Shown here one piece after another: positions 178 to 21,205 of a stretch of 64,000 nucleotides of DNA (positions are counted from its first letter, which is position 1; each line of letters begins with the position of its first letter). Position numbers and translations under genes: made by a program. The notes below the pieces were generated by a model. The model worked only from the letters and a program-made list of their open reading frames with translations. It was not told where the DNA came from and did not search any database. Source of the DNA: a virus (lineage: Duplodnaviria; Caudoviricetes); IMG/VR virus record IMGVR_UViG_3300033062_002302; one strand, 5' to 3'.

Positions 178-344
178 TTATATTAGAGTGTTTGGAATGT
201 GGTGGCGAGCTTGATATTTCCGATAAAGGAATAAATAGAGACGTTAAATGTCGTAATTGTGGATTTACATCTAATCTTTCTCATATCAATAATAAACGAA
301 AACAAAACGCATCTTCTCCCGAAATTTTTATTAAAAGAAAATAA
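174..344 (+). CDS. small zinc-ribbon protein (56 aa, not in ORF track)
   Basis: MIILECLECGGELDISDKGINRDVKCRNCGF...; two CxxC pairs; ATGA and TAATG overlaps with neighbours. Confidence 0.65.
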   Translation: MIILECLECGGELDISDKGINRDVKCRNCGFTSNLSHINNKRKQNASSPEIFIKRK

Positions 345-673
345 TGAAAAGCATTTCATTTGTTGATCAATTTGGATCTAAAAGATATTATCTAAATGAT
401 AAGCTCCATCGAGAAGATGGTCCTGCTTTTATATCGTACGATGGAAATAAACATTGGTATCAATATGGAGATCTTCATAGACTAGATGGACCAGCTGTTG
501 AGTGTGTTAATGGATCCAAACATTGGTATCAAAATAATTATCTTCATAGATTAGCTGGACCAGCCTGCGAATATTCTAATGGAGAAAAATATTGGTTTTT
601 TCATGGTAAGCATGTACTATGTCACTCTCAAGAAGAATTTGAAGAGAAAATTAAGTTAGCAATGTTTTGGTGA
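344..673 (+). CDS. HRxDGPA-repeat family protein, copy 1 (3 repeats, KLAMFW tail)
   Basis: LHREDGPA/LHRLDGPA/LHRLAGPA repeats; ends SQEEFEEKIKLAMFW. Confidence 0.85.
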   Translation: MKSISFVDQFGSKRYYLNDKLHREDGPAFISYDGNKHWYQYGDLHRLDGPAVECVNGSKHWYQNNYLHRLAGPACEYSNGEKYWFFHGKHVLCHSQEEFEEKIKLAMFW

Positions 674-678
674 TTGAT

Positions 679-942
679 ATGAAAAACGGACTGATTATAA
701 ATAAATACGGAACTAAATGTTATTATTTAAATGATAAATATCATAGAGAAGATGGTCCCGCAGTTGAACATCTGAATGGAGATAAACGATGGTATCAAAA
801 TGATAATCTTCATAGATTAGACGGACCTGCCATTGAATGGTCAGGGAATAGCTTGAAAAGTTGGTATTTTCATGGCAAACATATTAAATGTCGTTCTCAA
901 GAAGAGTTTGAAGAACAAATTAAGTTAGCAATGTTTTGGTAA
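679..942 (+). CDS. HRxDGPA-repeat family protein, copy 2 (2 repeats)
   Basis: MKNGLII start 5 nt after the previous stop; KLAMFW tail. Confidence 0.85.
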   Translation: MKNGLIINKYGTKCYYLNDKYHREDGPAVEHLNGDKRWYQNDNLHRLDGPAIEWSGNSLKSWYFHGKHIKCRSQEEFEEQIKLAMFW

Positions 943-953
943 ATAATTTTAAA

Positions 954-1766
954 ATGAAATATTTAACTCTCGGAACTCTTTGGAAAAATGAAGACAGTTA
1001 TGCTCTCGATTTTTTAAAATACCACCGTCATGTCGGAGTAGAGCATTTTGTTATTTTTGACCGCCAGAATGATTCTTTGAAAGAATTACTCAAACATGAA
1101 TCTGATGTCGAAATTATTCATTATCCAGAGAGCCCAGAACATACTCACCAACAAGCTTGGGGAGACCTGATTAAGCATAATCAGGGCAAAACAAAATGGC
1201 TTTCTCTTCTTGATGCCGATCAATGCCTCGTTCCGGTTCAAACCAATGATGTCAAAGACACCTTAAAGGACTTTGAAGATTTTGCGAGTCTTCAATGTAA
1301 TTGGAAATCCTTTGGTTCTTCAGGGCAAGATAAACGAGAACCCGGTTCCGTCTATGAACGATTCATAACGACATGTTATGATGATAATGAGTATAATTTT
1401 CATACCCAATTCATTTGTCAACCTGATAGAACTCTTCCCGTCAAAACGCTAGAGCCTCATTATCCATTGCTTCCTGACCATGAAATTTCTGTTAATACCA
1501 ATAAAGAAGCTATTGATTCAAATAAAATAATTTCTTTAAATCCTAATACTCCTTTATCTTTTAATACCCCTCCTTTGCATGATAAGCTTTGGATTGCTCA
1601 TTATACCAATAAATCAAGGGAAGAGTGGTTGATTAAAAATTCAAAAGGAAGAGCAGATATTTTCGGAGCCCATATTCCAATGGAACAATTTGATCAGTAT
1701 GAAGCGGTTTGCAATCAACAAATAGAAAAAAGAGTCTTTGACCTTTGGAAAGAAGCTAATAAATGA
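954..1766 (+). CDS. GT-A fold glycosyltransferase (GT92/GT2-like)
   Basis: LKYHRHVGVEHFVIFD, WLSLLDADQ (DxD), NWKSFGSSG, IAHY motifs. Confidence 0.75.
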   Translation: MKYLTLGTLWKNEDSYALDFLKYHRHVGVEHFVIFDRQNDSLKELLKHESDVEIIHYPESPEHTHQQAWGDLIKHNQGKTKWLSLLDADQCLVPVQTNDVKDTLKDFEDFASLQCNWKSFGSSGQDKREPGSVYERFITTCYDDNEYNFHTQFICQPDRTLPVKTLEPHYPLLPDHEISVNTNKEAIDSNKIISLNPNTPLSFNTPPLHDKLWIAHYTNKSREEWLIKNSKGRADIFGAHIPMEQFDQYEAVCNQQIEKRVFDLWKEANK

Positions 1767-2272
1767 TCTGGATTGCACACCGAGGGCTGTATTTAGGACC
1801 AAATTCAGGACAAGAGAATAAACCGAGTCAAGTTCAAATGGCTCTCAATGCAGGATTTGATGTCGAACTAGATGTTTGGTTTCAAAATAATAAATTTTTC
1901 TTGGGACATGATAAACCTCAATATGAGGTTCCTAAAGAATTTTTCTTTAATTATAAAATGTGGCTTCATGCTAAAGACATTCCAACGTTCTTGGAACTCA
2001 AAAGTCATCCAGTTGCCGAAGTTTTCTTTCACCAAGAAGATCAAGTTGCTATAACTTCCGGTAAATATCTTTGGACTTATCCGAATAAAAACAACATCTT
2101 AACTAAAGATTCTATTGCGGTTATGCCTGAGCGTGTTGGCAAGTGGAAAGATATAGAGTCTTGTGCGGGGATTTGCTCTGATTTTATTTCTAATTACAAA
2201 AATGATGTTTTGTTTAGATTGCCAGAATTTCAAGACGAAATCATTCCAACTCCAATTGTTCAAATCACTTGA
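1763..2272 (+). CDS. glycerophosphodiester phosphodiesterase-like protein
   Basis: IAHRG...EN...DVELDVW...LGHD motifs of the PLC-like/GDPD fold. Confidence 0.7.
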   Translation: MIWIAHRGLYLGPNSGQENKPSQVQMALNAGFDVELDVWFQNNKFFLGHDKPQYEVPKEFFFNYKMWLHAKDIPTFLELKSHPVAEVFFHQEDQVAITSGKYLWTYPNKNNILTKDSIAVMPERVGKWKDIESCAGICSDFISNYKNDVLFRLPEFQDEIIPTPIVQIT

Positions 2273-3006
2273 AAGCAGCTATCTGTCTTAGCGGTGCCGT
2301 TTCTAAAATAAACGACCAACGATTTTTAACTCAAAACTCTCTTTATTCTCCAGGAGAATATGTTAATTTAAACGTTTGTTTCAATTCAATCATTAAACAC
2401 ATCATTGAGCCGAATAAAAATTATTCATTTGAGTTTTTTATTCATGGTTGGAATCAAGATTTAGAACTATCCTTAAACGAAATATATAAGCCACAATCAT
2501 CTTTATTTGAAAATAATTCAAATTACAACCAAGAGATTTCATCTAAAATTCAAGATCCTAATGATTTCGCCAATGTCAGTAAAGCATTGTCTCTTTCTAA
2601 GAGTATAGAATTATTACAAAATTCAAATTTATCTTTTGATAAAATTATACTTTATCGACCAGATTTAATTCTTTTTAAAGATATTAATTTGAATAATTAT
2701 TCAAATAATATTTATGTCAATCAATTCCAAAATGGAAATGGAGATTTTCATTTCATTACTAATGATTCTAATATTCATTTATTTAAAGATATTTATCATT
2801 CAACATCTTATAATCCTTGTAAGACTCATTTCTGGATTCAGAACTATTTTAATTTAAAAAATATCAATTTAATTGAGGATGATATAGTTGCTGGAATAGA
2901 TCAAGAAGTTATTCGTAAAGTTTACACGAAGACCAACCAGAATATTAATATTCGGACATTATTGAAGTATGGAATGACTGAAGAAGAAGCACAAAAATAT
3001 GAATAA
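2269..3006 (+). CDS. glycan-biosynthesis-associated hypothetical protein
   Basis: KAAICLSG start, FFIHGW, YRPDL; within the glyco-operon. Confidence 0.5.
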   Translation: MKAAICLSGAVSKINDQRFLTQNSLYSPGEYVNLNVCFNSIIKHIIEPNKNYSFEFFIHGWNQDLELSLNEIYKPQSSLFENNSNYNQEISSKIQDPNDFANVSKALSLSKSIELLQNSNLSFDKIILYRPDLILFKDINLNNYSNNIYVNQFQNGNGDFHFITNDSNIHLFKDIYHSTSYNPCKTHFWIQNYFNLKNINLIEDDIVAGIDQEVIRKVYTKTNQNINIRTLLKYGMTEEEAQKYE

Positions 3007-3697
3007 ATATACGGATATGCAACGAAATTTTTATAATTCAACTTCTCATATTATGGCGGTAGAAAATCACCGAGGTCATGATTCAAATCCAGATTATAAA
3101 AATATTCTTTTAAAAGAAGTTTCTAATCTAGGTAATGGTAAGGCTTTAGATTTTGGGTGTGGAATTGGAAGAAACATTGATAATCTTTTAAAATTAAGTT
3201 CTTTTGATGTTGTTGATGGTTGCGATATTAGCCAGGAAAATATTGAAAGAAGCTATGAGTTTTTAAAATCAAATCATAGCACTTCAAGATTTAATCTTTT
3301 TACAACTGATGGAACATCCCTATCTCCTATTCTAGACAATCAATATGATTTTGTTATGTCAACCATTGTCTTACAGCATATTGCGGTTCATCAGATTAGA
3401 TTTTCTCTCTTACAAGATATTTATCGAGTTATGAAAGAAGGCGGTCTTTTTAGCTTTCAAATGGCTCAATATCGCTCTCCGCATATCAAATGCGCTAAAT
3501 ATTTCGATAATGCTTGGGATGCCTCTGGAACAAATGGATCCTTTGATGTAACCATTGATAATCCTGATGACTTAGTTTCCGATCTCTCTAAAATTGGATT
3601 TAACAATATTTCTTATCAAATTGCCCCAGAATGGGATGCTAACAACCAATGTTATAATAACAATGATAATTGGATTTATGTTAAGGCTTATAAATGA
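2999..3697 (+). CDS. class I SAM-dependent methyltransferase
   Basis: ALDFGCGIGR motif I, GCDIS, STIVLQHI, MKEGG. Confidence 0.85.
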   Translation: MNKYTDMQRNFYNSTSHIMAVENHRGHDSNPDYKNILLKEVSNLGNGKALDFGCGIGRNIDNLLKLSSFDVVDGCDISQENIERSYEFLKSNHSTSRFNLFTTDGTSLSPILDNQYDFVMSTIVLQHIAVHQIRFSLLQDIYRVMKEGGLFSFQMAQYRSPHIKCAKYFDNAWDASGTNGSFDVTIDNPDDLVSDLSKIGFNNISYQIAPEWDANNQCYNNNDNWIYVKAYK

Positions 3698-4386
3698 TTA
3701 CAGTTTATACTGTTGCTTTTAATGAGGAATTACAGTTACAATTCTTTATAGATTTCTATAGATCTCGATTTAAGGATTGCCATATTGTCATTTATGACAA
3801 CATGAGCACAGATGATACGGTTAAAATTGGAAAAGAAAATAATTGCGAGATTATATCCTATGATACAAATAATCAAATTAATGATAAAAAATATTTGGAA
3901 ATTAAAAATAACTGTTGGAAATCTAGCCAAACAGATTGGGTTTTAGTTGCAGACGTTGATGAATTATTAGATATCACGCCAACTTACTTGTTAAACGAAT
4001 ATGCTTCAATTATATCTTCAGAAGGATATAATATGATTAATATGGATAATTGTCCTTTATCTGAAATTAAATGGGGAGCAAGGCATTATAATTCAGACAA
4101 GTCTTATTTATTTAATAAGCGAGAAATTAAAGAAATAAATTACGAAGCAGGATGTCATAAAGCTAATCCTACTGGAAATGTTAGCTATTCTGAAAGAACT
4201 TATAGAGCTTATCATTATAATTTTATTAATTTAGAATTATCGATTGAAAAATATAAAACTTATGCCAAAAGACTTTCTCCGGAAAATATTAAAAATGGTT
4301 GGGGAATTCATTATCTTATGACGCCAGAACAAATTAAGGCTGAATATCTTGAAATTCAAAGAAATGCCATTAGGTTGTTTTTATGA
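3694..4386 (+). CDS. family 2 glycosyltransferase (paralog of 7652-8353)
   Basis: AFNEE, YDNMSTD, WVLVADVDE. Confidence 0.8.
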   Translation: MITVYTVAFNEELQLQFFIDFYRSRFKDCHIVIYDNMSTDDTVKIGKENNCEIISYDTNNQINDKKYLEIKNNCWKSSQTDWVLVADVDELLDITPTYLLNEYASIISSEGYNMINMDNCPLSEIKWGARHYNSDKSYLFNKREIKEINYEAGCHKANPTGNVSYSERTYRAYHYNFINLELSIEKYKTYAKRLSPENIKNGWGIHYLMTPEQIKAEYLEIQRNAIRLFL

Positions 4387-5006
4387 ATATTGGAATTTCT
4401 TTTGTTGGAGTCTCTTTTGGAGAAGGTAGAAATTACAAACATTGTTTTTCTAATTTAGAGTCTTATTTAATAAATCCTTTTAAACAACATCATAACGTTA
4501 ATACGTTCATTACTTCTTATAATAGCGAATTTAATGATGATATAATTTCATTGTTTAACCCAACAAAGCATCAATTTAATGATTTTGGTAACTCTCATCA
4601 AGTTTTAACTTACATTAAGTCTTTGGAGCAATTAAGAGGGCAAGATTTAGATTTTGTTATTTCGACTAGATTTGACATTCATTATCATAAAGATCTTTCT
4701 TTAATTGGTTTAGATTTTAATAAGTTTAATGCTTTATTCAAAGAGAATGGTTGGTGGGATTCAATGCATTTTACGACGGATAATTTCTTTGCTTTCCCAT
4801 ATTCTATGTTAGAAGTTTTTATTGATGTTTTAAAAGACCTTTATCAAAATCCTTCTCGTGGTTCTCTAATGGATTTGCACCAGGCATTTTATAGAATTCA
4901 GGTAAAGGTAGGAATAGAAAACACTCATATCATCTCAAATATAGATGAATTAAGCAATACAAATTCTTTTTACTCTCTCTGCAATGAAAAATGGGGAATT
5001 CGATGA
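4383..5006 (+). CDS. glycan-biosynthesis-associated hypothetical protein
   Basis: ISTRFD and TDNFF motifs; resembles 2269-3006; operon context. Confidence 0.5.
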   Translation: MNIGISFVGVSFGEGRNYKHCFSNLESYLINPFKQHHNVNTFITSYNSEFNDDIISLFNPTKHQFNDFGNSHQVLTYIKSLEQLRGQDLDFVISTRFDIHYHKDLSLIGLDFNKFNALFKENGWWDSMHFTTDNFFAFPYSMLEVFIDVLKDLYQNPSRGSLMDLHQAFYRIQVKVGIENTHIISNIDELSNTNSFYSLCNEKWGIR

Positions 5007-5578
5007 ATCGAACTCAGTTATTACAATATTTAATGAAAAGATTTAATTATCAATCCTATCTTGAAATAGGATGCGCCAATGATTGGAATTTTAATCAAAT
5101 TTCAGCTTCTAAAAAAGTTGGAGTTGATCCAGGGCAGGGCGGAACGCTCAGAATGACGAGCGACGATTTCTTCGCTCAAAATACCGAGAAGTTCGATCTT
5201 ATTTTTATTGATGGTCTACATATTGCCGCGCAAGTAGATAAAGATATCGTCAATGCTGTTAAATGTTTGACAGATAATGGAACTATCGTGATGCATGACT
5301 GTAATCCTGCGGTTGAGGAAGCTCAACGAGAATATGTTGTTATTTCAGATTGGAACGGAAATTGCTGGCAAAGTTTTGTTAAAATTAGGCATTTAGATTA
5401 CATTGATGCTGCAACTGGAAATTTTGACCATGGTTGTGGAGTCTTGAGAATTAGAAAAAATTCAGATAAAATCGAAGAAGTTAGTCACGATCTATTAAAT
5501 TGGCATGATTTGGTCCGAAATCGTCAATCATGGATGAGATTGATGTCTCCAGATGATTTAAAAAAATGGATTGGATAA
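5003..5578 (+). CDS. class I SAM methyltransferase (Methyltransf_24-like)
   Basis: YLEIG, GVDP, FDLIFIDGLH, IVMHD. Confidence 0.85.
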   Translation: MNRTQLLQYLMKRFNYQSYLEIGCANDWNFNQISASKKVGVDPGQGGTLRMTSDDFFAQNTEKFDLIFIDGLHIAAQVDKDIVNAVKCLTDNGTIVMHDCNPAVEEAQREYVVISDWNGNCWQSFVKIRHLDYIDAATGNFDHGCGVLRIRKNSDKIEEVSHDLLNWHDLVRNRQSWMRLMSPDDLKKWIG

Positions 5579-6253
5579 ATGATAAACTTTGATATTGCCG
5601 TCGTTGTCCCAGTTCTAAATAGACCTAAAAATGTTAAACCTTTCATTGAATCATTTTTAGCAACAACTCCATTAGATAAAGCAGAAGTAATTTTTGTTAC
5701 GAGTTCATCTTGTCAAGATGAAATTGATGAGATTAAGAAGTTTTCAGGTCCAATTCGAATTGAAATTGCATCAGATGACATTTTATCTTGGGCTAAACGA
5801 ATTAATTATGGAATATCCAAAACGACTCAATCTTGGATTCTTTGTGCGGCAGATGATGTCGTTTTCCATCAAAACTGGTTTGAATTAGCTCAGGATGCCT
5901 CTCAAGGCTTTTCTGGGATTCTAGGGACCAATGACCTAGGTCACCCAGCAACGATTGGAGGATGGCATTCTACGCATCCTATCGTCGCCAGGGATTATGT
6001 TATGTCTCAAGGGACAATGGATGAGCCCGGAAAATTATGCCATGAAGGCTATAATCATAATTATGTCGATGTTGAAATGATTCATACCGCTATGAAGCGC
6101 GGATGCTGGAAACACCTCAAAGATTGTATTATTGAGCATAATCATCCTGCTTGGAATAAAAATTCGTGGGACGATGTTTATCAAAAAGGGCAAGAAAAAG
6201 TTAGTCAAGACGGCGCGCTCTGGCAAAAGCGAAAAGCTCAATTTTCTCTTTAA
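5579..6253 (+). CDS. family 2 glycosyltransferase
   Basis: VVVPVLNR, CAADD, YVDVE, IEHNHP. Confidence 0.75.
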   Translation: MINFDIAVVVPVLNRPKNVKPFIESFLATTPLDKAEVIFVTSSSCQDEIDEIKKFSGPIRIEIASDDILSWAKRINYGISKTTQSWILCAADDVVFHQNWFELAQDASQGFSGILGTNDLGHPATIGGWHSTHPIVARDYVMSQGTMDEPGKLCHEGYNHNYVDVEMIHTAMKRGCWKHLKDCIIEHNHPAWNKNSWDDVYQKGQEKVSQDGALWQKRKAQFSL

Positions 6254-6284
6254 ACTCTGATAATTTACTCATATATTAAGTAAT

Positions 6285-7655: not shown

Positions 7656-8353
7656 TTACAGTTTATACAATCGCTTTTAATGAAGAAGTTTTTATTCAGT
7701 TTATGATCGATCATTATCGATCAAGGTTTAAAGATTGTAATATTGTCGTTTATGATAACGAAAGTACGGATAAAACAAGAGAAATTGCTTTAAATAATAA
7801 TTGTCAAGTTATCTCTTATTCTACCGGAGATAAGATTAGCGATTCTAAATATCTTCAAATTAAAAATAATTGTTGGAAGCAAGCTGAGACTGATTGGGTT
7901 TTAGTTTGTGATATGGATGAGCTTTTAGATCTTAATGAGAAAGATCTTGTTAAAGAAGAATCGTTAAAAACAAGTATCATTAGGTCAGAAGCTTATAATA
8001 TGGTTAATATGAATGATGATTATGATTTAGCCAATATTAAACATGGATCGAGATGCTCTCCATATGATAAATATTATTGTTTTAATAAAACAATGATAAG
8101 TGAAATTCGATATGAGCCAGGATGCCATAATGCCAAGCCTATTGGAAACATTAAGCTGAGCCAGGATTGCTACAAATTGTACCATTATAAATGTATTAAT
8201 CCGGATTTTCAAGTTGCTCGATATAAGCTATATGAATCACGATTGAGTGAAGAAAATAAGAAAAACCGTTGGGGCGAGCATTATTTAAATGCCGAAGAAC
8301 AAATCCGAAATGGATTTCCCTTATGGAGAAATGCTGCGGTTAAAATCATATGA
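7652..8353 (+). CDS. family 2 glycosyltransferase (paralog of 3694-4386)
   Basis: MITVYTIAFNEE, YDNESTD, VCDMDE; 5' DNA nearly identical to 3694. Confidence 0.8.
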   Translation: MITVYTIAFNEEVFIQFMIDHYRSRFKDCNIVVYDNESTDKTREIALNNNCQVISYSTGDKISDSKYLQIKNNCWKQAETDWVLVCDMDELLDLNEKDLVKEESLKTSIIRSEAYNMVNMNDDYDLANIKHGSRCSPYDKYYCFNKTMISEIRYEPGCHNAKPIGNIKLSQDCYKLYHYKCINPDFQVARYKLYESRLSEENKKNRWGEHYLNAEEQIRNGFPLWRNAAVKII

Positions 8354-10998: not shown

Positions 10999-11006
10999 GG
11001 AAAAAA

Positions 11007-11522: not shown

Positions 11523-12316
11523 CATTAAAATTAAAAGACCGCGTTTCTATTTATGAAAATGCGGCAAAACATAAATTATTACCTAAGTTACCCGTTATCA
11601 TTAGTGTTAACGGTCGTTCTTTTTCTAAAGTGACGTCTCTCTTAGAGAAGCCATTTTCTAGTGATTTGGCTCAATGTATGTATTCGACTCTGGCTAAATT
11701 GGTTCAAGAGATAGATGGATGTATTTTTGGATATTCATTTAATGATGAAATTGTTCTCATTTTAAGAAATGATCAAAGTTTGGAGACGACGCCTTGGTTT
11801 GACAATGATGTTCAAAAGATAACATCTGCTGTTTCTTCAATTGCAACTCATCATTTTAATAATATTGCGACTGCAAATGATCTTAATTTAATGTCTGATC
11901 CCTTATTTGTCGCCAATGTTTTTGCGGTGCCCAACATTACAGAAGCGATTAATGTAATGATTTATAAGCAACAAAAAGCGATGCAGGAAGCGATTCAGCA
12001 AGCCTGTTTTTATGAATTATTAAATGTTAATAACAAAGAAGATATCAAAGAAATGCTTTTAGGGACGAGTTATGATGATAAAGTCAATATTTTATTAGAG
12101 CAATTTAATATAGATTATAATTCATATCCTCAGGCATTTCGGCGGGGTGTTGCTTGTTATCGAGTTCCAAGCGTTACTTCTTTTGATGGGGAAGAGAAGA
12201 TTAAAGGAAAATGGAAACTTAATTTAGAAATTCCGATTTTTACTAAGGACCATAAATTTTTGAATAATATTTTTTCTTCTGGCAAAGATATTTTTAGAGA
12301 AAATAATTTAAAGTGA
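11519..12316 (+). CDS. tRNA-His guanylyltransferase (Thg1)-like protein
   Basis: LKDR..YE, SVNGRSFS (cf. RxDGxxF), YSFNDEI (cf. QSDE), WFD..VQK, FRRG. Confidence 0.8.
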   Translation: MTLKLKDRVSIYENAAKHKLLPKLPVIISVNGRSFSKVTSLLEKPFSSDLAQCMYSTLAKLVQEIDGCIFGYSFNDEIVLILRNDQSLETTPWFDNDVQKITSAVSSIATHHFNNIATANDLNLMSDPLFVANVFAVPNITEAINVMIYKQQKAMQEAIQQACFYELLNVNNKEDIKEMLLGTSYDDKVNILLEQFNIDYNSYPQAFRRGVACYRVPSVTSFDGEEKIKGKWKLNLEIPIFTKDHKFLNNIFSSGKDIFRENNLK

Positions 12317-12585
12317 AAAATGGTCTTATTATTAATCCTTGGAAATTTAAAGAATATTGGTTAAACGATCAGTTGCACAGAGATGATGGTCCTGCTTTAG
12401 ACGATTCAGGAGTACAGATGTGGTTTCAATATGGAAAACTCCATCGTTTAGATGGACCCGCAGTCTTTTATCCTTCTAAAGATAAATCATTCGAAAAAGA
12501 TGAATGCTGGTTTCATGGCAAACATATAGATTGCTCTTCTCAAAAAGAATTTGAAGAGGCTATTAAGTTAGCTATGTTTTGGTGA
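12313..12585 (+). CDS. HRxDGPA-repeat family protein, copy 3
   Basis: 2 repeats; KLAMFW tail. Confidence 0.85.
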   Translation: MKNGLIINPWKFKEYWLNDQLHRDDGPALDDSGVQMWFQYGKLHRLDGPAVFYPSKDKSFEKDECWFHGKHIDCSSQKEFEEAIKLAMFW

Positions 12586-12590: not shown

Positions 12591-12851
12591 ATGAAAAATG
12601 GTCTAGAAATAAATGAGTGGGGGACCAAAAGATATTATTTAAATGATAAATTGCATCGAGAAGAGGGTCCCGCTATTGAATATCCTTGTGGAGATAAAGA
12701 ATGGTTTCAGAACGGTCTCTATCACAGATTAGATGGACCTGCTATTGAATGGTATAATGGAAGTGGATGGTGGTATTTTCATGGTAAACGTATAGAATGT
12801 TCTTCTCAAAAAGAATTTGAAAACAAAATTGCAGAGCTAATATTCTCATGA
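12591..12851 (+). CDS. HRxDGPA-repeat family protein, copy 4 (KIAELIFS tail)
   Basis: 2 repeats; alternative tail. Confidence 0.85.
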   Translation: MKNGLEINEWGTKRYYLNDKLHREEGPAIEYPCGDKEWFQNGLYHRLDGPAIEWYNGSGWWYFHGKRIECSSQKEFENKIAELIFS

Positions 12852-13108
12852 AAAATAGTCTAATTATAGATAGAGAGGGTACCAAAAATTATTATCTAAA
12901 TGGTTTGTTTCATCGATTAGATGGTCCGGCTATTGAATCTGTTCATGGATATAAATCTTGGTTTCAACATGGTAATCTTCACAGATTAGATGGACCTGCT
13001 GTTGAAGCTGGTAACAGTTATAAATCTTGGTATTTTCATGGTAAATATATACCATGCCATTCTCAAGAAGAATTTGAAGAGAAAATTGCAGAGTTAATAT
13101 TTTCATGA
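12848..13108 (+). CDS. HRxDGPA-repeat family protein, copy 5 (KIAELIFS tail)
   Basis: 2 repeats; alternative tail. Confidence 0.85.
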   Translation: MKNSLIIDREGTKNYYLNGLFHRLDGPAIESVHGYKSWFQHGNLHRLDGPAVEAGNSYKSWYFHGKYIPCHSQEEFEEKIAELIFS

Positions 13109-13254
13109 ATAAAAAATGCTCTTTAGAACCAAATAAAAATAGATATAATACTCAAAAAGATGCCGACCTAATCGCATTAATAAATAATAAAAATTTGCGC
13201 TCATATTACTGCTTAACCTGTAAAGGTTGGCATTTAACATCCAATATAGATTAA
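13105..13254 (+). CDS. small zinc-binding phage protein (49 aa, not in ORF track)
   Basis: MNKKC...RSYYCLTCKGWHLTS; ATGA overlap with the upstream stop. Confidence 0.65.
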   Translation: MNKKCSLEPNKNRYNTQKDADLIALINNKNLRSYYCLTCKGWHLTSNID

Positions 13255-13258: not shown

Positions 13259-13525
13259 ATGAAAAATAACGTAGAGCTTTTCACAGACACAAACGGATCT
13301 AATAGATATTATCTAAATGGTATTCTACATCGAGAAGATGGTCCCGCCGTTGAATTATATAATAGAGATAAATATTGGTATTTTAACGGAAAATTACATC
13401 GAGAAAGTGGTCCCGCTATTCAATTAAATAATGGAGATAAATGGTGGTATTTTCATGGTAAATATATAGATTGCTTCTCTCAAATAGAATTTGAAGAACA
13501 AATTAAGTTAGCTATGTTTTGGTGA
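13259..13525 (+). CDS. HRxDGPA-repeat family protein, copy 6
   Basis: 2 repeats; KLAMFW tail. Confidence 0.85.
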   Translation: MKNNVELFTDTNGSNRYYLNGILHREDGPAVELYNRDKYWYFNGKLHRESGPAIQLNNGDKWWYFHGKYIDCFSQIEFEEQIKLAMFW

Positions 13526-13530: not shown

Positions 13531-13866
13531 ATGAAAAATGGCTTAATTGTAGATCAATATGGCGATAAAAGATATTATTTAAATGATCTACTTCATCGAG
13601 AAGACGGTCCTGCCGTTGAATTAGCTCTTGGATATAAACATTGGTATCAACATGGTAAGCGTCATCGTTCAAATGGTCCAACCATTGAATCTCCTGATGG
13701 AACTAAATGGTGGCATCAACATGGTTATCTTCATAGATTAGATGGTCCAGCTATTGAATATGGTGATGGACATAAAGATTGGTATTTGCATGACAATTAT
13801 ATAAACTGCTCTTCTCAAGAAGAGTTCTTAGCTATGACAAATCCTAAATTAGCAATGTTTTGGTAA
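13531..13866 (+). CDS. HRxDGPA-repeat family protein, copy 7 (LAMTNPKLAMFW tail)
   Basis: 3 repeats; extended tail. Confidence 0.85.
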   Translation: MKNGLIVDQYGDKRYYLNDLLHREDGPAVELALGYKHWYQHGKRHRSNGPTIESPDGTKWWHQHGYLHRLDGPAIEYGDGHKDWYLHDNYINCSSQEEFLAMTNPKLAMFW

Positions 13867-13890
13867 TAAAATTCCATTTAGATAAACATT

Positions 13891-15371: not shown

Positions 15372-15391
15372 AATTTACTTCCTTTAAAGGC

Positions 15392-15419: not shown

Positions 15420-15425
15420 ATCTTG

Positions 15426-15911: not shown

Positions 15912-16234
15912 ATAAACAAGAAATATTAAACGCTTTAGTTAAAAATGTTAAAAGCAAACATCCTTGGAAAATCTCTCAAGAAAAATATGAGGCTTTATTT
16001 CAAGAATTACCACTTGAATTTTTAGAAGAACGATTAGTTTATGATAATCTTTTAGTTAAACAAGCTTCTTTTAAGAAATGTCATTTAATTTTGTCAGATG
16101 TTAAAATCGAAGTTCAATTAACATTAGATGAATTAATTGCTTGGGAATTGAGCTTAGATAAATGGGAAGAGGCTCGGGCACATAATATTGTTTCAAATGA
16201 TATTAAAAAAATATTAAAAGAACAAAATGTCTAA
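15908..16234 (+). CDS. hypothetical protein
   Basis: ORF coupled to neighbours. Confidence 0.55.
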   Translation: MNKQEILNALVKNVKSKHPWKISQEKYEALFQELPLEFLEERLVYDNLLVKQASFKKCHLILSDVKIEVQLTLDELIAWELSLDKWEEARAHNIVSNDIKKILKEQNV

Positions 16235-16730
16235 TATAGATATTAAAGATATCTATTATATAGATAATAATTGTAAAATTTGTCGTAAATCAATGATTGC
16301 TTGGGGATGTCAGCATTCGCAAAAGCCAGAGAAAATTTCTTTTTTAAAAGAAAAATTAATTATACTAAATAATGTATTTTTAGATTTAAAATATAATAAA
16401 TTAAATGTTGATATTGAAAACATTTTAGGTTTGTACGTTCATAAAACATGCAAAACATGTCGCTATAACATATATTACAAGATCAATACAGATCTAAGCA
16501 ATACTAGCTCTATTATTTTAGATGAATATAATAGATATTTGGAATTTGATTTGCCTAAATTAATGTCTTGCAGTATTTTTGACAACAAACTTATTATTTA
16601 TAAATATGATATAAAATCAAACAAAAATAAGCAGATTCTATCTATGGAAGATTGCCCGATTTTATACTCTCCTGAAATGTCTTTTGCTGATATAAAAAGA
16701 TATATTAAAGGGGCGTTAATATTCTCGTAA
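16227..16730 (+). CDS. hypothetical Cys-containing protein ending in the same LIFS tail as the repeat family
   Basis: CxxC pairs; C-terminus IKRYIKGALIFS. Confidence 0.6.
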   Translation: MSNIDIKDIYYIDNNCKICRKSMIAWGCQHSQKPEKISFLKEKLIILNNVFLDLKYNKLNVDIENILGLYVHKTCKTCRYNIYYKINTDLSNTSSIILDEYNRYLEFDLPKLMSCSIFDNKLIIYKYDIKSNKNKQILSMEDCPILYSPEMSFADIKRYIKGALIFS

Positions 16731-16779
16731 CCAAAGGACAAATAATATGAAGAAAACCTAGAACGACATCATTCAAGAC

Positions 16780-17328
16780 ATGAAAAATTGTTTTCAGTCT
16801 AAAAATCAATCAATTTATGAACGTGGCGAAGCCGTTCAAAAACAGACCCTATACATTATAAATTTATTAAATAATAATTTAATTGATTCGAATTATCGAA
16901 TACCTGATTATTTTTATCATAATAGAGAATTAATTCTAGCTAATTTAATTCCAATTGATGATATCAAAGATTATACTCTTTTTCATGATTGTGGAAAGCC
17001 GTATTGTCAAAGAATAGATGAACGAGGTGTTCATTTTGATAATCATGCCGAAGTGTCTAAAGACGTCTGGATGAGTATTTCTGATAATGAACAAGTAGCC
17101 AAACTCATTTCAATGGATATGATTATCCATAAAATGAAGGCATGCGATATTGATTCTTTTATTCAACATAAAGAATGTGTTACGTTGCTTTTAGTTGGTT
17201 TAGCTGAGATTCATGCCAATGCTGAAATGTTCGGCGGGATTGAATCCGAATCATTTAAAATTAAATATTCTCAAATAAATCGTCGCGGAAAAGCCATTCT
17301 CCAGAAATTGGAGAAAATTAATGATTAA
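16780..17328 (+). CDS. HD-domain phosphohydrolase
   Basis: LFHDCGKP, HFDNHAEVS; an upstream in-frame ATG at 16747 is separated by a TAG. Confidence 0.7.
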   Translation: MKNCFQSKNQSIYERGEAVQKQTLYIINLLNNNLIDSNYRIPDYFYHNRELILANLIPIDDIKDYTLFHDCGKPYCQRIDERGVHFDNHAEVSKDVWMSISDNEQVAKLISMDMIIHKMKACDIDSFIQHKECVTLLLVGLAEIHANAEMFGGIESESFKIKYSQINRRGKAILQKLEKIND

Positions 17329-17650
17329 AAATGGAGATAAGCTATATATTGTTGTTCGGCAGGATTTAAAACCAGGCTCTCAGCTTGCTCAAGCGTGCCA
17401 CGCTTCTTTTCTCTTTGCCTCAGAGTTTCCAGATGAGACCAAAGATTGGATGACAAATTCTAATCATATTGTAATTTTAGGGATTAAATCCGAAGATGAA
17501 TTAATAAAACTGATAGAATCTGCCGTTGATATTAAAACAGCTGTATTTAAAGAGCCTGATATGAACAATCAAATAACGGCAATTGCTTTAGAATGCAATT
17601 CTTTGAGCAAAGAATTATGTTCTAAATTAAAATTAGCATTAAATGGATAA
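17321..17650 (+). CDS. peptidyl-tRNA hydrolase type 2-like protein
   Basis: KLYIVVRQDL..G..LAQACHAS, IVIL, FKEPD..NQITAIA. Confidence 0.75.
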   Translation: MIKNGDKLYIVVRQDLKPGSQLAQACHASFLFASEFPDETKDWMTNSNHIVILGIKSEDELIKLIESAVDIKTAVFKEPDMNNQITAIALECNSLSKELCSKLKLALNG

Positions 17651-17945: not shown

Positions 17946-17948
17946 ATT

Positions 17949-18383
17949 ATGTATTGTTCTTGCGGAAATTCCAACGTTGCTAAAATAAATGGTAAATACA
18001 AAAGAAGAAAAGACCATCCATTATGCCTTCGATGCTTTAAAACCCAACAAAATAAAATGGCTAAAAATGACCCTCCTCTTTTTGCTTGGGAAGAGAGAAA
18101 TAATATCCTTTCTTTACTAAAGGAATTTCCTGAAATTCTTTTGTCTTCTAATCCTTATGTTACAGAGCATTCAAATCAAATTAATTGCAAAATAATTATT
18201 ACGGATTATAAAAGTCAAATAGAATTAGAGAATACAAATTATTCAATTCCAAGTCTTAATTATGATTGGAATGATAAAACGCTTAAGTATGTTAATCATT
18301 GGTTGGCTAAAGTCGTAGACGATGAGGTAGTCAAAGGCTCTCGTCAAATTTTAATTTGTGGATTTGGCAATTGGCTTTCATGA
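17949..18383 (+). CDS. hypothetical protein with N-terminal Cys cluster
   Basis: CSC...CLRC. Confidence 0.55.
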   Translation: MYCSCGNSNVAKINGKYKRRKDHPLCLRCFKTQQNKMAKNDPPLFAWEERNNILSLLKEFPEILLSSNPYVTEHSNQINCKIIITDYKSQIELENTNYSIPSLNYDWNDKTLKYVNHWLAKVVDDEVVKGSRQILICGFGNWLS

Positions 18384-18640
18384 GAAATGGCTTATTTAAA
18401 AGTAAATATGGACATAAATTTTATTATGTCAATGGTAAATTACATAGAGAAGATGGACCTGCTGCTGAATGGGCGGATGGACCTAAATTTTGGCTGATTC
18501 GCGATCGTCACCATAGATTAGATGGACCCGCTATTGAATATGCTGATGGAGCTAAATTATGGTATTTTCATGGTAAACGTATAGATTGTGATTCTCAAGA
18601 AGAATTTGAAGAACAAATTAAGCTAGTAATGTTTTGGTAA
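18380..18640 (+). CDS. HRxDGPA-repeat family protein, copy 8
   Basis: MRNGLF start (ATGA overlap); KLVMFW tail. Confidence 0.85.
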   Translation: MRNGLFKSKYGHKFYYVNGKLHREDGPAAEWADGPKFWLIRDRHHRLDGPAIEYADGAKLWYFHGKRIDCDSQEEFEEQIKLVMFW

Positions 18641-18645
18641 ATGAT

Positions 18646-18909
18646 ATGAAAAACGGTATCATCATAAATGAGTGGAACGAAAAACTTTATTTTGTAAATG
18701 ACCTATTGCATAGGGATGATGGTCCGGCATTTGAAAGTGGTTCTAGAAATAGTAAAGAATGGTACCAACATGGGCTGCTTCATAGATTAGACGGTCCCGC
18801 TATTGAATGGTATTTTGGAGATAAAGTTTGGTTCTTTCATGGTAAAAGTATAAATTGCAAGTCTCAAGAGGAATTCAAAGAGCAAATTAAATTAGCAATG
18901 TTTTGGTAA
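18646..18909 (+). CDS. HRxDGPA-repeat family protein, copy 9
   Basis: 2 repeats; KLAMFW tail. Confidence 0.85.
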   Translation: MKNGIIINEWNEKLYFVNDLLHRDDGPAFESGSRNSKEWYQHGLLHRLDGPAIEWYFGDKVWFFHGKSINCKSQEEFKEQIKLAMFW

Positions 18910-18914
18910 ATGAT

Positions 18915-19241
18915 ATGATAAATGGCTTATTTATAGATGAGTATGGTAATAAAAGATATTGGCTAAATGGCGAATTACACCGAGAAGGCGGACCCGCCAT
19001 TGAATACGCTAATGGAAATGAAGTTTGGTTTCAAAACGGAAAACGTCACAGAATAGGTGGTCCTGCCGTCACATATTTTGGAAATAAAGAGTGGCATCAA
19101 AATGGTTTCTACCATAGGTTAGATGGACCCGCCATTGAACATGGTCATGGATATAAGTGTTGGTATTTTCATGGCAAACAAATAATTTGTAAAACTCAAG
19201 AAGAATTTGAAGAGCAAATTAAGTTAGCAATGTTTTGGTAA
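18915..19241 (+). CDS. HRxDGPA-repeat family protein, copy 10
   Basis: 3 repeats; KLAMFW tail. Confidence 0.85.
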   Translation: MINGLFIDEYGNKRYWLNGELHREGGPAIEYANGNEVWFQNGKRHRIGGPAVTYFGNKEWHQNGFYHRLDGPAIEHGHGYKCWYFHGKQIICKTQEEFEEQIKLAMFW

Positions 19242-19246
19242 TTGAT

Positions 19247-19513
19247 ATGAAAAACGGTCTAGAACTAGATAATTTGGGAAATAAAAGATATTTTCTAAAT
19301 GATAAATTGCATCGAGAAGATGGTCCAGCCGCAGAATTTGTTTCCGGCACCAAATTTTGGTATCAAAATAATCAACGTCATAGATTAGATGGTCCTGCTA
19401 TTGAATGTTCGAATGGAGATAAATTTTGGTTTATTAATGATGAAAGAATATTTTGTGATTCTCAGGAAGAGTTCTTAGCTATGACTAATCCTAAATTAGG
19501 GATGTTTTGGTAA
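19247..19513 (+). CDS. HRxDGPA-repeat family protein, copy 11 (LAMTNPKLGMFW tail)
   Basis: 2 repeats; extended tail. Confidence 0.85.
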   Translation: MKNGLELDNLGNKRYFLNDKLHREDGPAAEFVSGTKFWYQNNQRHRLDGPAIECSNGDKFWFINDERIFCDSQEEFLAMTNPKLGMFW

Positions 19514-19518
19514 TTAAT

Positions 19519-19797
19519 ATGAAAAAGCATTTGTTATTATTTTTATTGGCTGTTGGATGCAACAATTCTCCTCCTAAAATAGAGGAACGTGAAATTCCAA
19601 TTTTATTCTACAAACACGAAGCGTCTAATTTATGCTTTGCTTTTGTTTCAGTTAAAGATTCTAGATTAATTTCATTGGCAGAAGATATAGAAAATCGTAG
19701 ACTCATAAATATTCCTTGCACTCCTGAAGTAGAAAAATTAATAGATAATCCTAAGGCTCGATGTCATTATTTTAATCATATGCGTGAATGTCAATGA
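19519..19797 (+). CDS. putative lipoprotein
   Basis: MKKHLLLFLLAVGC signal peptide with lipobox. Confidence 0.65.
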   Translation: MKKHLLLFLLAVGCNNSPPKIEEREIPILFYKHEASNLCFAFVSVKDSRLISLAEDIENRRLINIPCTPEVEKLIDNPKARCHYFNHMRECQ

Positions 19798-20210
19798 TTA
19801 ATAAAATTAAAGAAGCCGTTGTTGCCCTTATCATCCAAGATGGTCTAATCCTTAGCATTTCACGTCGAAATGACAAGACTAAATTTGGTCTCATTGGCGG
19901 CAAGGTCGATCCAGGCGAAACTTTAATTGAAGCTTTAATTCGAGAAACTAAAGAAGAATCATCCGTTCTCATTAAAGATCACGTTTTCTTGTATGAAAGA
20001 ATTGAGCCTGGAGGTCCGGATGGGATTGACTTTTTTAGTCGATGCTACTATATTTCAGATTGGTCAGGCGTTCCCGCTTCTCTTGAAGAAGGCGAAGTCA
20101 CTTGGTTAACCGAAGAAGAATTAACCTCAACTAAAGCCGCATTCCCAGAATTTAATAAAAGAGCCTTGGAGGTTTTTAAATTAAAATTTCCAAAAATATT
20201 GCTTAAATAG
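19788..20210 (+). CDS. NUDIX hydrolase
   Basis: GGKVDPGETLIEALIRETKEES Nudix box. Confidence 0.9.
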   Translation: MSMINKIKEAVVALIIQDGLILSISRRNDKTKFGLIGGKVDPGETLIEALIRETKEESSVLIKDHVFLYERIEPGGPDGIDFFSRCYYISDWSGVPASLEEGEVTWLTEEELTSTKAAFPEFNKRALEVFKLKFPKILLK

Positions 20211-20267
20211 CAGTAAAAGCAATCTATTATAATTTAATTACATTTTTGCGCCAAATAGAAGTCTTGC

Positions 20268-20528
20268 ATGAGAAATGGGTTAATCATCAATAAATCTGGA
20301 AATAAATGTTATTATCTAAATAATAAGCTTCATCGAGAAGACGGTCCAGCCGTTGAATATTCTAATGGAGACAAAATATGGCTTCAGAACGGTCTCTATC
20401 ATAGATTAGACGGTCCTGCCGTTGAATACGCTGACGGAGACGTTTCTTGGTATTTTCATGATAAATATATACACTGTATCTCTCAAGAAGAATTTGAAGA
20501 ACAAATTAAGTTGGCGATGTTTTGGTGA
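20268..20528 (+). CDS. HRxDGPA-repeat family protein, copy 12
   Basis: 2 repeats; KLAMFW tail. Confidence 0.85.
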   Translation: MRNGLIINKSGNKCYYLNNKLHREDGPAVEYSNGDKIWLQNGLYHRLDGPAVEYADGDVSWYFHDKYIHCISQEEFEEQIKLAMFW

Positions 20529-20533
20529 CTATT

Positions 20534-20869
20534 ATGAGAGTTAAAAATGGATTAATTCTAGACCATCTTGGAAATAAAAGATATTATTTGAATGATGAAT
20601 TTCATAGAGAAGACGGTCCTGCCATTATTTTTACTAATGGAGAAAAACATTGGTATCAACATCATTTACTTCATCGAGAAGATGGTCCCGCCATTGAATA
20701 TGCGAGCGGAGCCAAATTTTGGTATCAACATGGTAATTTTCATAGAATAGATGGACCTGCCATTGAACGTGTTAATGGAGATAAATTTTGGTATTTTCAT
20801 GGCAAACAAATAGATTGTAAATCTCAAGAAGAATTTGAAGACAAAATTAAATTAGCGATGTTTTGGTAG
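20534..20869 (+). CDS. HRxDGPA-repeat family protein, copy 13
   Basis: 3 repeats; KLAMFW tail; TAG stop. Confidence 0.85.
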   Translation: MRVKNGLILDHLGNKRYYLNDEFHREDGPAIIFTNGEKHWYQHHLLHREDGPAIEYASGAKFWYQHGNFHRIDGPAIERVNGDKFWYFHGKQIDCKSQEEFEDKIKLAMFW

Positions 20870-20875
20870 CATGAT

Positions 20876-21205
20876 ATGAAAAATGGTCTAATTATAGATG
20901 AGTATGGTACTAAAAAATATTATTTAAATAATCGATTGCATAGAAAAGATGGTCCTGCTATTGAATATACTAATGGAGATAAAGAATGGTATCAATATGG
21001 AAAACGTCATAGACTAAATCTTCCAGCAGCAGACGTTGTCATGTTTGGTAAAGTTTGGGCTAAAAGAGGCAAAATTCATCGTCTTGATGGTCCAGCTGTT
21101 GAATATTCTAATGGTCATAGAGAATGGTATTTTCATGGTAAACGTATAGAATGTAAATCTCAAGAAGAATTTCAAGAGCTTATTAAGCTAATTTATTTTT
21201 GGTGA
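20876..21205 (+). CDS. HRxDGPA-repeat family protein, copy 14 (KLIYFW tail)
   Basis: 3 repeats, the middle one degenerate. Confidence 0.85.
   Translation: MKNGLIIDEYGTKKYYLNNRLHRKDGPAIEYTNGDKEWYQYGKRHRLNLPAADVVMFGKVWAKRGKIHRLDGPAVEYSNGHREWYFHGKRIECKSQEEFQELIKLIYFW

What the first reader, a model, noticed from the sequence alone, without database searches (positions are those of the whole stretch)
344..21205. 14-copy cassette repertoire of small variable-repeat proteins with a constant tail: candidate undescribed diversified binder system
Seen: 14 paralogs of ~85-112 aa in four tandem clusters, inserted between unrelated accessory genes. Each has a near-fixed N-cap (MKNGL-like), 2 or 3 ~23-aa units (LHRxDGPAxExxxGxKxWxxxG) with invariant scaffold residues and highly variable x positions, and a conserved C-terminal helix, CxSQEEFEExIKLAMFW or a variant. 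Known: the unit resembles MORN-variant/YwqK-like beta-hairpin repeats, which form binding surfaces and occur in large viruses. Inference: variable surface plus constant docking tail is the layout of an adaptor repertoire (cf. poxvirus ANK/F-box proteins). The phage may run a gene accordion of binders against host or anti-phage defence proteins.
Basis: partly seen in the sequence, partly recalled or inferred. Interest (0 to 1): 0.85.

Follow-up and report, generated by a model that had tools for sequence, protein, structure and literature searches.

The report
Phage family of MORN-like binder proteins
One uncultured huge phage carries at least 50 old, individually maintained genes for tiny beta-hairpin-repeat proteins that have a fixed frame, a few freely varying surface positions and a constant C-terminal end. 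They look like a panel of binding modules with a shared address tag, but what they bind and what reads the tag is unknown.

Summary
The 14 genes exist. The same 239-kb contig holds 26, and an abutting 62.5-kb fragment of the same phage holds 24 more, so the phage has at least 50.

- **Fold.** An AlphaFold model (pLDDT 95.8) gives a hairpin sheet plus a C-terminal helix. Its best solved matches are MORN proteins. No Pfam MORN model matches; there are only sub-threshold DUF6745 hits.
- **Selection.** The frame and the tail are under purifying selection (dN/dS about 0.2). Unit positions 11, 12, 13, 15 and 17 evolve at about the silent rate and use a Tyr/Trp/His/Ser/Asp-rich alphabet. Positive selection is not shown.
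- **Maintenance.** 49-50 of 50 frames are open; neutral drift would leave under 3% open.
- **Age.** There is no recent duplicate (lowest dS 0.63), so this is not a gene accordion.
- **Tail.** 49 of 50 copies end hydrophobic-Phe-X. Two unrelated small-protein families of this phage carry the same ending, and a control phage does not.
- **Other phages.** In 29 loci from other phages, paralogues share a tail within a locus (59% identity) but not between loci (11%), while the repeats are alike everywhere.

The adaptor layout is supported. Partners, expression and any anti-defence role are untested. This scan has already reported similar arrays on other DNA.

The parts
344..673 (+). copy 1, 109 aa, 3 units, tail ...IKLAMFW
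679..942 (+). copy 2, 87 aa, 2 units, tail ...IKLAMFW; starts 5 nt after the stop of copy 1
12313..12585 (+). copy 3, 90 aa, GTG start overlapping the end of a Thg1-like gene, 2 units, tail ...IKLAMFW
12591..12851 (+). copy 4, 86 aa, 2 units, tail ...IAELIFS (the ending used by the unrelated zinc-ribbon-like family)
12848..13108 (+). copy 5, 86 aa, 2 units, tail ...IAELIFS; ATGA overlap with copy 4
13259..13525 (+). copy 6, 88 aa, 2 units, tail ...IKLAMFW
13531..13866 (+). copy 7, 111 aa, 3 units, tail ...NPKLAMFW
18380..18640 (+). copy 8, 86 aa, 2 units, tail ...IKLVMFW
18646..18909 (+). copy 9, 87 aa, 2 units, tail ...IKLAMFW
18915..19241 (+). copy 10, 108 aa, 3 units, tail ...IKLAMFW
19247..19513 (+). 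copy 11, 88 aa, 2 units, tail ...NPKLGMFW
20268..20528 (+). copy 12, 86 aa, 2 units, tail ...IKLAMFW
20534..20869 (+). copy 13, 111 aa, 3 units; the copy that was modelled (pLDDT 95.8; hairpins, helix 98-110)
20876..21205 (+). copy 14, 109 aa, 3 units (middle unit degenerate, HRLNLPA), tail ...IKLIYFW
16227..16730 (+). unrelated Cys-rich 167-aa protein that ends ...IKGALIFS, an example inside the finding's span of the same hydrophobic-Phe-X ending on another family

Best explanation
These are small soluble proteins made inside the infected cell. No signal peptide or membrane segment is evident in the sequences by eye, and none was computed.

Each copy is a short single-layer beta-sheet: an N-cap hairpin, 1-5 hairpin units of 23 residues of the MORN kind (sequence family: the HRxDGPA repeat that Pfam captures inside DUF6745), and a C-terminal capping module (WYFHGK-x-I-x-C-x-SQEEF...F-X).

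The frame is held fixed. Positions 12, 15 and 17 of each unit, next to the hairpin tip and by hairpin geometry on one face, are free to differ and use a Tyr/Trp/His/Ser/Asp-rich alphabet. The copies would therefore form a standing panel of at least 50 binding modules with different specificities. Each copy is kept by selection.

The C-terminal helix caps the sheet. Its end, hydrophobic-Phe-X-COOH, is a signature that this phage also puts on two other expanded families of small proteins. I read that ending as a shared docking or handling signal, read by one still unknown phage or host component.

Shown: anatomy, predicted fold, selection pattern, age, spread, tail sharing.

Inferred: that the proteins bind other proteins, that the variable face is the binding face, and that the tail is read by a partner.
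For: - **Fold.** pLDDT 95.8. Foldseek matches MORN1 (6t69, 6t4d, 6t68) and MORN4/Myo3a (6jle) at probability 1.0. MORN repeats are 23-residue hairpin units that act as protein-binding modules (PMC7725318; PMC12748787).
- **Selection, pooled.** dN/dS is 0.215 for the frame, 0.91 for positions 11/12/13/15/17 and 0.21 for the tail helix.
- **Selection, by site.** H, R, G, P, A, Cys, Q, F, I and the penultimate F show 0 non-synonymous changes against 1-11 synonymous ones. Positions 12 and 17 are at 1.0-1.6 and position 15 at 0.86-1.16.
- **Residue use at variable positions is not neutral.** Tyr is 4.6x and Trp 6x the proteome level, and Lys, Ile, Leu, Gly and Gln are depleted (chi-square p = 3e-92).
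- **Each copy is kept.** 49-50 of 50 frames are open, against 0.4-3% expected after neutral change of 0.2-0.45 per site.
- **Tail ending.** 49 of 50 copies end F-X although the tail after the Cys is 14, 17, 19 or 21 residues long. Copies at the ends of clusters keep it, so the next gene's start does not explain it.
- **Tail on other genes.** F at -2 occurs in 74 of 304 genes of the contig and 42 of 109 of the abutting fragment. The background is 4.6%, shadow ORFs show 8.6%, and a control huge phage has 16 of 267.
- **Across phages.** The last 10 residues are 58.6% identical within a locus and 11.1% between loci. The first repeat unit is 65% versus 60%. The control phage G005 has 26 genes with a different constant tail.
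- **The sheet does not need this tail.** Some family members end right after the last hairpin.
Against: - No partner, target or expression data exist.
- Positive selection is not demonstrated. No site is significantly above 1, and the pooled variable class was chosen for being variable.
- In solved MORN proteins the ligand sits in the conserved aromatic groove, not on a variable face. A shared ligand for all copies is therefore possible.
- The helix is confidently placed in the monomer model, and residues special to the last hairpin (F20, H21, K23, I, C) are co-conserved with it. Much of the 'tail' may simply be a structural cap.
- I could not read model coordinates. The one-face claim rests on hairpin geometry and the DSSP string only.
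- The similarity of the tails of the three families is short and was not tested statistically.
Confidence: 0.5

Rival explanations
1. One common ligand and a structural tail. All copies bind the same thing through the conserved aromatic face, as canonical MORN proteins do. The helix is only a cap, and positions 12/15/17 are simply unconstrained. The many copies would serve dosage or timing.
For: - The conserved face (I9, aromatic 11, K16, W18) is the MORN-groove equivalent, and solved MORN complexes use the groove.
- Variable sites evolve at about the silent rate with no significant excess.
- The helix is confidently packed in the monomer model.
- Related cap helices occur in other lineages.
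Against: - Residue use at the variable sites is far from neutral.
- Fifty diverged copies with no recent duplicate are all kept open. Dosage is usually met by near-identical repeats.
- F at exactly -2 is kept through four tail lengths and appears on unrelated families.
- Tails are lineage-specific while the repeats are universal.
Confidence: 0.2
2. Sugar or cell-wall binders. The hairpin repeats bind carbohydrate or peptidoglycan, like choline-binding or glucan-binding repeats, and work with the neighbouring sugar-modifying and wall-degrading enzymes.
For: - The clusters in the window sit among glycosyltransferase, methyltransferase, epimerase and nucleotidyl-transferase genes, and beside a glucosaminidase and an M23 peptidase.
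- The Tyr/Trp/Asp/Ser-rich variable sites also suit sugar binding.
- MORN repeats are reported in phage endolysins (statement in PMC9238414).
- Foldseek lists glucan-binding repeats of dextransucrases at low rank.
Against: - No signal peptide is evident in the sequences.
- Elsewhere in the same phage the copies lie among arrays of other small genes, not sugar genes.
- No Pfam wall-binding repeat matches.
- The dextransucrase matches have probability of 0.05 or less.
Confidence: 0.1
3. Packaged cargo. The hydrophobic-Phe-X end is a loading signal that puts these and the other tailed small proteins into the capsid, for ejection into the next host. This is comparable to the C-terminal cargo-loading peptides of encapsulins (own knowledge).
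For: - A common C-terminal ending is found on about a quarter of the genes, nearly all of them small proteins (68 of 172 proteins up to 200 aa, against 6 of 132 larger ones).
- The capsid of a phage of more than 300 kb has room.
Against: - No virion data for this phage.
- The PA5oct relative gp156 lacks the mass-spectrometry note that its neighbour carries in the record. This is weak evidence, and that protein has another tail.
- The genes lie in non-structural regions.
Confidence: 0.1
4. A literal gene accordion in a current arms race with host defence: copies are gained and lost quickly under strong diversifying selection.
For: - The genes are tandemly arranged.
- Copy numbers differ greatly between phages: 22 to 160 matches per contig.
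- The NPK-tail copies do not form one clade by their repeat bodies (AU p = 0.029), which hints at shuffling.
Against: - Lowest pairwise dS is 0.63 and the median is 0.96.
- The best paralogue is often far away rather than adjacent.
- Three independent samples carry identical sequence, with 0-1 differences in 5-20 kb.
- No reverse transcriptase for targeted diversification.
- No match to defence-system models.
Confidence: 0.07

Closest known systems
MORN repeat proteins (MORN1 6t68/6t69/6t4d; MORN4 with the Myo3a tail 6jle; junctophilins 7rxe)
   Same: Both have a 23-residue hairpin unit and an elongated single-layer sheet with a conserved aromatic face. Both are used as protein-binding modules, and C-terminal parts mediate contacts.
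   Different: No Pfam MORN or MORN_2 match. The signature is H-R-x-D-G-P-A instead of Y-x-G-x-W. The proteins are much smaller (1-5 units), with a capping helix and a fixed C-terminal ending. Structural scores are middling (TM about 0.47, VIA Z 5-6.7).
Pfam DUF6745 (PF20530), uncharacterised
   Same: The same repeat. Sub-threshold hits of the copies, and clear hits of long relatives, map to profile positions about 49-108.
   Different: The copies do not reach the gathering score (best 22.9 against 27 bits), and only the repeat part of the 206-position model is matched. No paper mentions the family.
YwqK-type MORN_2 immunity proteins of LXG toxin systems
   Same: Small hairpin-repeat proteins listed as the antitoxin partner of a toxin (ywqJ-ywqK pair, PMC8321402). 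One relative in the database carries PF07661 and that name.
   Different: No MORN_2 hit for the window's copies. There is no adjacent toxin gene, and the copies are present in tens rather than as single pairs.
Poxvirus ankyrin/F-box (PRANC) and giant-virus F-box/MORN multigene families
   Same: Many paralogues with a variable repeat domain and a constant C-terminal module. One BFVD match is annotated 'F-box and MORN repeat protein'.
   Different: The tail has no F-box or any other Pfam match. The host is a bacterium without cullin ligases. The copies are five to ten times smaller.
C-terminal docking tails: sliding-clamp motifs (PIP box Q-x-x-L-x-x-F-F/Y; bacterial Q-L-x-L-F) and HbYX tails of proteasome activators (own knowledge)
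   Same: A short hydrophobic motif fixed relative to the free C-terminus. Many of the ...IKLAMFW tails read Q-I-K-L-A-M-F-W, which fits the PIP pattern with W last. Hydrophobic-Phe-X mirrors Hb-Tyr-X.
   Different: The Q is not conserved (site value 0.7). No clamp gene was found in the 302 kb known. No ring protease was looked for. No binding was tested.

Membership tests
MORN / MORN_2 (PF02493, PF07661; YwqK-like) | Sequence match to the Pfam repeat model | tested here: not met
   No hit at E <= 1 for 8 copies. NCBIfam also gives no such name.
MORN / MORN_2 (PF02493, PF07661; YwqK-like) | 23-residue beta-hairpin units forming an elongated single-layer sheet | tested here: met
   57 of 61 units are 23 residues long. 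The AlphaFold model has pLDDT 95.8. Foldseek probability is 1.0 to MORN1 and MORN4. This rests on a predicted model only.
DUF6745 (PF20530) | Score at or above the gathering threshold of 27 bits | tested here: inconclusive
   The best copy scores 22.9 bits. Relatives found with E down to 1e-277 carry PF20530, but only profile positions about 49-108 align.
Viral repeat-plus-F-box adaptor families (poxvirus ANK/PRANC) | C-terminal F-box-like domain | tested here: not met
   No Pfam family on the tail.
Viral repeat-plus-F-box adaptor families (poxvirus ANK/PRANC) | Many paralogues with a variable repeat part and a constant C-terminal module | tested here: met
Diversity-generating retroelement target | Reverse transcriptase plus a near-identical template/variable repeat pair | tested here: not met
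   No RVT_1 match in G000 or G002. Lowest dS between copies is 0.63. The genome is incomplete.
Gene accordion (recent tandem amplification) | Near-identical adjacent copies, and copy number that varies between close relatives | tested here: not met
   Closest pair is 74% identical with dS 0.63 or more. Three samples are identical. No relative at intermediate distance was available.
Sliding-clamp-binding tails | A conserved clamp motif at the C-terminus, and a clamp to bind | tested here: inconclusive
   L-x-x-F-X is conserved and the PIP-like Q is not. No DnaN or gp45 domain in the 302 kb known. The host clamp is unknown.

The most novel reading that the evidence does not exclude
The hydrophobic-Phe-X-COOH ending is an address tag read by a single hub of the phage or host, such as a protease, chaperone, clamp or the capsid. 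The 50 MORN-like proteins would then be substrate adaptors that bring 50 different targets to that hub. This would be a bacterial-virus counterpart of the poxvirus ankyrin/F-box families. Each phage lineage would have evolved its own tag-reader pair, since about 14 tail types are seen.
Probability: 0.2. Interest if true: 0.85.

Novelty: new variant of a known kind. Interest (0 to 1): 0.6.

Why it matters
The repeat family is very large: 35,845 clusters at 50% identity match the profile. The small forms sit in Atlas clusters that are 88-100% viral. In huge phages the family takes up tens of genes per genome. No paper found here describes it.

The rule found here gives a concrete handle for experiments. 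The repeats are universal, a few positions vary, and the C-terminal tail is constant within a phage but different between phages.

If the proteins are adaptors or inhibitors, they would be a major unexplored layer of how large phages take over cells. They would also be a natural small scaffold for engineered binders.

Tried and rejected
- **Tools not offered.** Complex prediction (a homodimer test of the tail) and the look-up of sequencing runs (expression) were not available for this window.
- **No named family.** PHROGs gave only one weak hit. NCBIfam, PADLOC and a PDB sequence search gave nothing.
- **Cultured phages.** megablast against cultured phages found nothing.
- **Orthologue-based selection test.**
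  - The only DNA-polymerase relatives are a 45-kb contig without family members and a distant one.
  - The supposed close relative G002 turned out to be the adjoining part of the same phage.
  - The other contigs are identical populations. No between-relative or within-population test was possible.
- **Tree of the repeat bodies.** It is an unresolved star. Monophyly of the NPK-tail group is rejected only marginally (p = 0.029), and that of the LIFS group is not rejected (p = 0.20).
- **Promoter and terminator scan.** Uninformative in this AT-rich DNA: 75 promoter-like sites against 55 expected.
- **Other negative searches.** No Rfam family in the window. No reverse transcriptase. No DnaN or gp45 clamp domains.
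- **Fusion partners of long relatives.** They are diverse and give no functional lead (InPase, a RepB primase helical domain, several DUFs).
- **DNA-level explanation of the tail.** Rejected. Synonymous codons and all three stop codons vary, dS is 0.73, and copies at the ends of clusters keep the tail.
- **Membrane-targeting helix.** Rejected by eye. This phage's tail is net acidic.


Full report
**What is there**

The window is the minus strand of positions 175,328-239,327 of a 239,327-bp IMG/VR phage contig that CheckV rates 56% complete. It has phage replication and recombination genes, some of them T4-like: SbcCD-like nuclease, a UvsX-like recombinase, a large DNA polymerase, a primase and RuvC.

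Their real starts are the ATG (once GTG) of M-K/R-N-G-L. Within a cluster the next gene starts 5 nt after the stop, or overlaps it as ATGA.

**True size of the family**

- A motif scan of the whole contig finds 26 copies with 1 to 5 repeat units.
- IMG/VR fragment G002 (62,556 bp) overlaps window position 1 by 86 identical bases.
- A 283,431-bp ENA contig is 100% identical to both the window (20.3 kb) and G002 (20.3 kb).
- G002 is therefore the continuation of the same phage. It holds 24 more copies.
- The phage has at least 50 copies in the 302 kb known, about 5% of its coding capacity.

**Anatomy**

The unit is 23 residues in 57 of 61 cases. H2, R3, P7 and (nearly) G6, A8 and W18 are invariant. 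Positions 11, 12, 13, 15 and 17 carry 2.5-3.5 bits of entropy.

A 50-sequence alignment gave an AlphaFold model of copy 13 with mean pLDDT 95.8. It shows an N-terminal hairpin, short paired strands in each unit, a final hairpin, and a helix at residues 98-110.

Structural matches:
- Foldseek against the PDB returns MORN1 of Toxoplasma, Plasmodium and Trypanosoma, MORN4/Myo3a, axonemal MORN proteins and junctophilins (probability 1.0, TM about 0.45-0.49).
- A second alignment gives Z 5-6.7 to the same set and to other single-layer sheets (CPAP G-box, OspA). This is a middling range.
- Against predicted viral structures, the best matches are uncharacterised proteins of uncultured tailed phages (TM 0.94), Agrobacterium phage Atu_ph07, Celeribacter phage P12053L and several giant viruses.

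At sequence level there is no MORN or MORN_2 hit. There are only sub-threshold hits to the repeat part of DUF6745.

From the DSSP string and ordinary hairpin geometry (N13-G14 as the turn), residues 12, 15, 17 and 10 point to one face, and 9, 11, 16 and 18 to the other. That puts the variable residues on one face near the hairpin tips, and the conserved I/aromatic/K/W ladder on the other. This is inference: I could not read the coordinates.

**Selection**

Pooled Nei-Gojobori estimates on 16 copies in a common register:

| Class | dN/dS | dS |
|---|---|---|
| Repeat frame | 0.215 | 0.88 |
| Five variable positions per unit | 0.91 | 1.05 |
| 15-residue tail helix | 0.21 | 0.73 |

The variable positions were chosen for being variable, which biases that value upward.

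A parsimony count on a tree of 24 copies gives per-site values:
- 0 for H, R, G, P, A, the Cys, Q, F, I and the penultimate F, despite 1-11 synonymous changes at each.
- 1.0-1.6 at positions 12 and 17 and 0.86-1.16 at position 15. None is significantly above 1; the best uncorrected p at these positions is 0.08.

Residue use at positions 11, 12, 15 and 17 in 114 units is far from neutral. Tyr is 18% (4.6 times the proteome), Trp 6.4% (6 times) and His 2.8 times. Lys, Ile, Leu, Gly, Gln and Met are depleted (chi-square p = 3e-92). These positions are therefore variable within a restricted, interface-like alphabet.

All or nearly all 50 frames are open. One G002 copy lacks the N-cap, with stops upstream. 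A simulation of neutral change at 0.2-0.45 substitutions per site leaves only 0.4-3% of copies open. Each copy is therefore maintained.

**Age**

The lowest pairwise dS is 0.63 and the median is 0.96. The closest pair is 74% identical in protein, and the best paralogue is often hundreds of kb away. The tree of the repeat bodies is a star with long tips. Three independent samples carry the same sequence. This is an old, stable repertoire, not a recent amplification.

**The tail**

After the last hairpin come residues special to that hairpin (F20, H21, K23), then x-I-x-C, then S-Q-E-E-F-...-F-X. There are three main variants...IKLAMFW (25 copies)...NPKLAMFW (11) and ...ELIFS/T (9). The tail after the Cys is 14, 17, 19 or 21 residues long, yet 49 of 50 copies end with Phe at -2.

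The conservation is at the protein level. Ala, Leu and Lys codons and all three stop codons vary, and copies at the ends of clusters keep the tail.

The ending is not private to this family:
- With a simple gene caller, 74 of 304 genes of the contig and 42 of 109 of G002 have Phe at -2.
- The comparisons are 4.6% Phe overall, 8.6% in shadow ORFs, and 16 of 267 genes in control phage G005.
- The other carriers are a large family of Cys-rich small proteins ending ...L-L-I-F-S (one lies in the finding's span, 16227-16730) and a small family ending ...L-x-x-F-L.

Earlier notes of this scan on the same genome had reported this shared tail. I re-derived it independently.

Part of the helix is probably a structural cap. 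It is confidently placed in the monomer model, and related helices follow the last hairpin in Atu_ph07 and in G005. Other family members end right after the last hairpin, so the sheet does not need it.

**The general rule**

- The profile matches 35,845 clusters at 50% identity.
- Long forms of up to about 1,900 residues exist.
- The small forms fall in Atlas clusters that are 88-100% viral.
- Other huge-phage contigs have 22-160 matches each.
- In G005, 26 genes with 1-7 units all end in a different constant module...P-S-E-D-Q-I-N-D-K-V-Q-Q-V-T-S-S-S-I-L-D.
- Across 29 non-redundant viral loci with at least 3 family ORFs (153 ORFs), the last 10 residues are 58.6% identical within a locus and 11.1% between loci. 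The first repeat unit is 65% versus 60%.
- About 14 tail types are visible.

'Universal repeats, a tail constant within a phage and different between phages' is thus a property of the family. It fits a module that works with a lineage-specific partner.

**What it most likely is**

The copies are most likely a standing panel of small intracellular binding modules on a MORN-like frame. Their C-terminal cap ends in a signature that this phage uses as a common docking or handling signal.

Candidate readers are not identified. No clamp gene was found. The phage does encode a trigger factor and a DnaJ, which are worth testing. There is no evidence for or against an anti-defence role.

**Rivals**

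- A common ligand in the conserved groove, with a purely structural tail.
- Carbohydrate or wall binding, suggested by the sugar and lysis genes around the window's clusters.
- Packaged cargo.
- A literal accordion.

Their evidence is set out under the rival explanations.

**Comparison with earlier work**

The literature search found nothing on DUF6745 and nothing on MORN-like multigene families in phages. There is only a remark that MORN-repeat proteins are 37-fold enriched in long reads of marine viruses (PMC9238414).

This scan has reported comparable HRxDGPA arrays on other DNA. The present case adds the copy count of 50, the selection figures, the link to the phage-wide Phe-X tail, and the measured within-versus-between-phage tail rule.

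Noticed in passing
window 1-86 and locus L086-L089 (G002): The IMG/VR record G002 (62.5 kb, labelled provirus, 14% complete) is the direct continuation of this contig beyond window position 1. A 283-kb ENA contig spans both. The two database records are therefore one phage of at least 302 kb.
   Followed up: yes
window 47972-49216 and 59821-60837: The phage encodes a full-length trigger factor (Trigger_N, FKBP_C, Trigger_C) and a DnaJ (J domain, zinc centre, C domain). These are unusual chaperone genes for a phage and possible handlers of the many small tailed proteins.
   Followed up: partly
window 16227-16730; G000:C1:93-13000 and 18454-20112: A second, unrelated family of small Cys-rich proteins (about 40 copies on the contig) ends in ...L-L-I-F-S. 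A third small family (G000:C1:36669-37485) ends in ...L-x-x-F-L/I. Phe sits at -2 in 24% of all genes of the contig.
   Followed up: partly
loci L095-L105 (G005, 203.8 kb, 96% complete): Another huge phage has 26 genes of the same repeat family with 1-7 units. All end in a different constant module of about 40 residues, ...GINDPSEDQINDKVQQVTSSSILD. That tail is found on no other gene of that phage.
   Followed up: partly
window 19519-19797: Directly after cluster 3 lies a 92-aa ORF with a lipoprotein-type start (M-K-K-H-L-L-L-F-L-L-A-V-G-C). It is a possible membrane or exclusion protein.
   Followed up: no
window 11519-12316, 17321-17650, 19788-20210: The clusters are interleaved with a Thg1-like tRNA-His guanylyltransferase, a PTH2 peptidyl-tRNA hydrolase and a NUDIX hydrolase. 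These are RNA and translation accessory genes (Pfam labels).
   Followed up: no
window 936-11000 and 21236-22854: Long runs of glycosyltransferase, methyltransferase, epimerase/dehydratase and sugar nucleotidyl-transferase genes flank the clusters. Earlier notes on this genome link such genes to a possible virion modification.
   Followed up: no
window 13105-13254: The 150-nt 'gap' between copies 5 and 6 holds a 49-aa ORF with a C...C-x-x-C pattern. It is called as a gene on the ENA contig.
   Followed up: no
window 24497-24946: A 450-nt stretch without an ORF, locally richer in G+C, between divergent genes. It has no tRNA and no Rfam match.
   Followed up: partly
G002:C1:37540-38500 (L087): Two copies of the family in the same phage carry a different C-terminal module (...E-I-D-G-x-K-Y-x-L...), which is the standard tail of the family in several other phages. 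One of the two has it after an internal copy of the usual helix.
   Followed up: no
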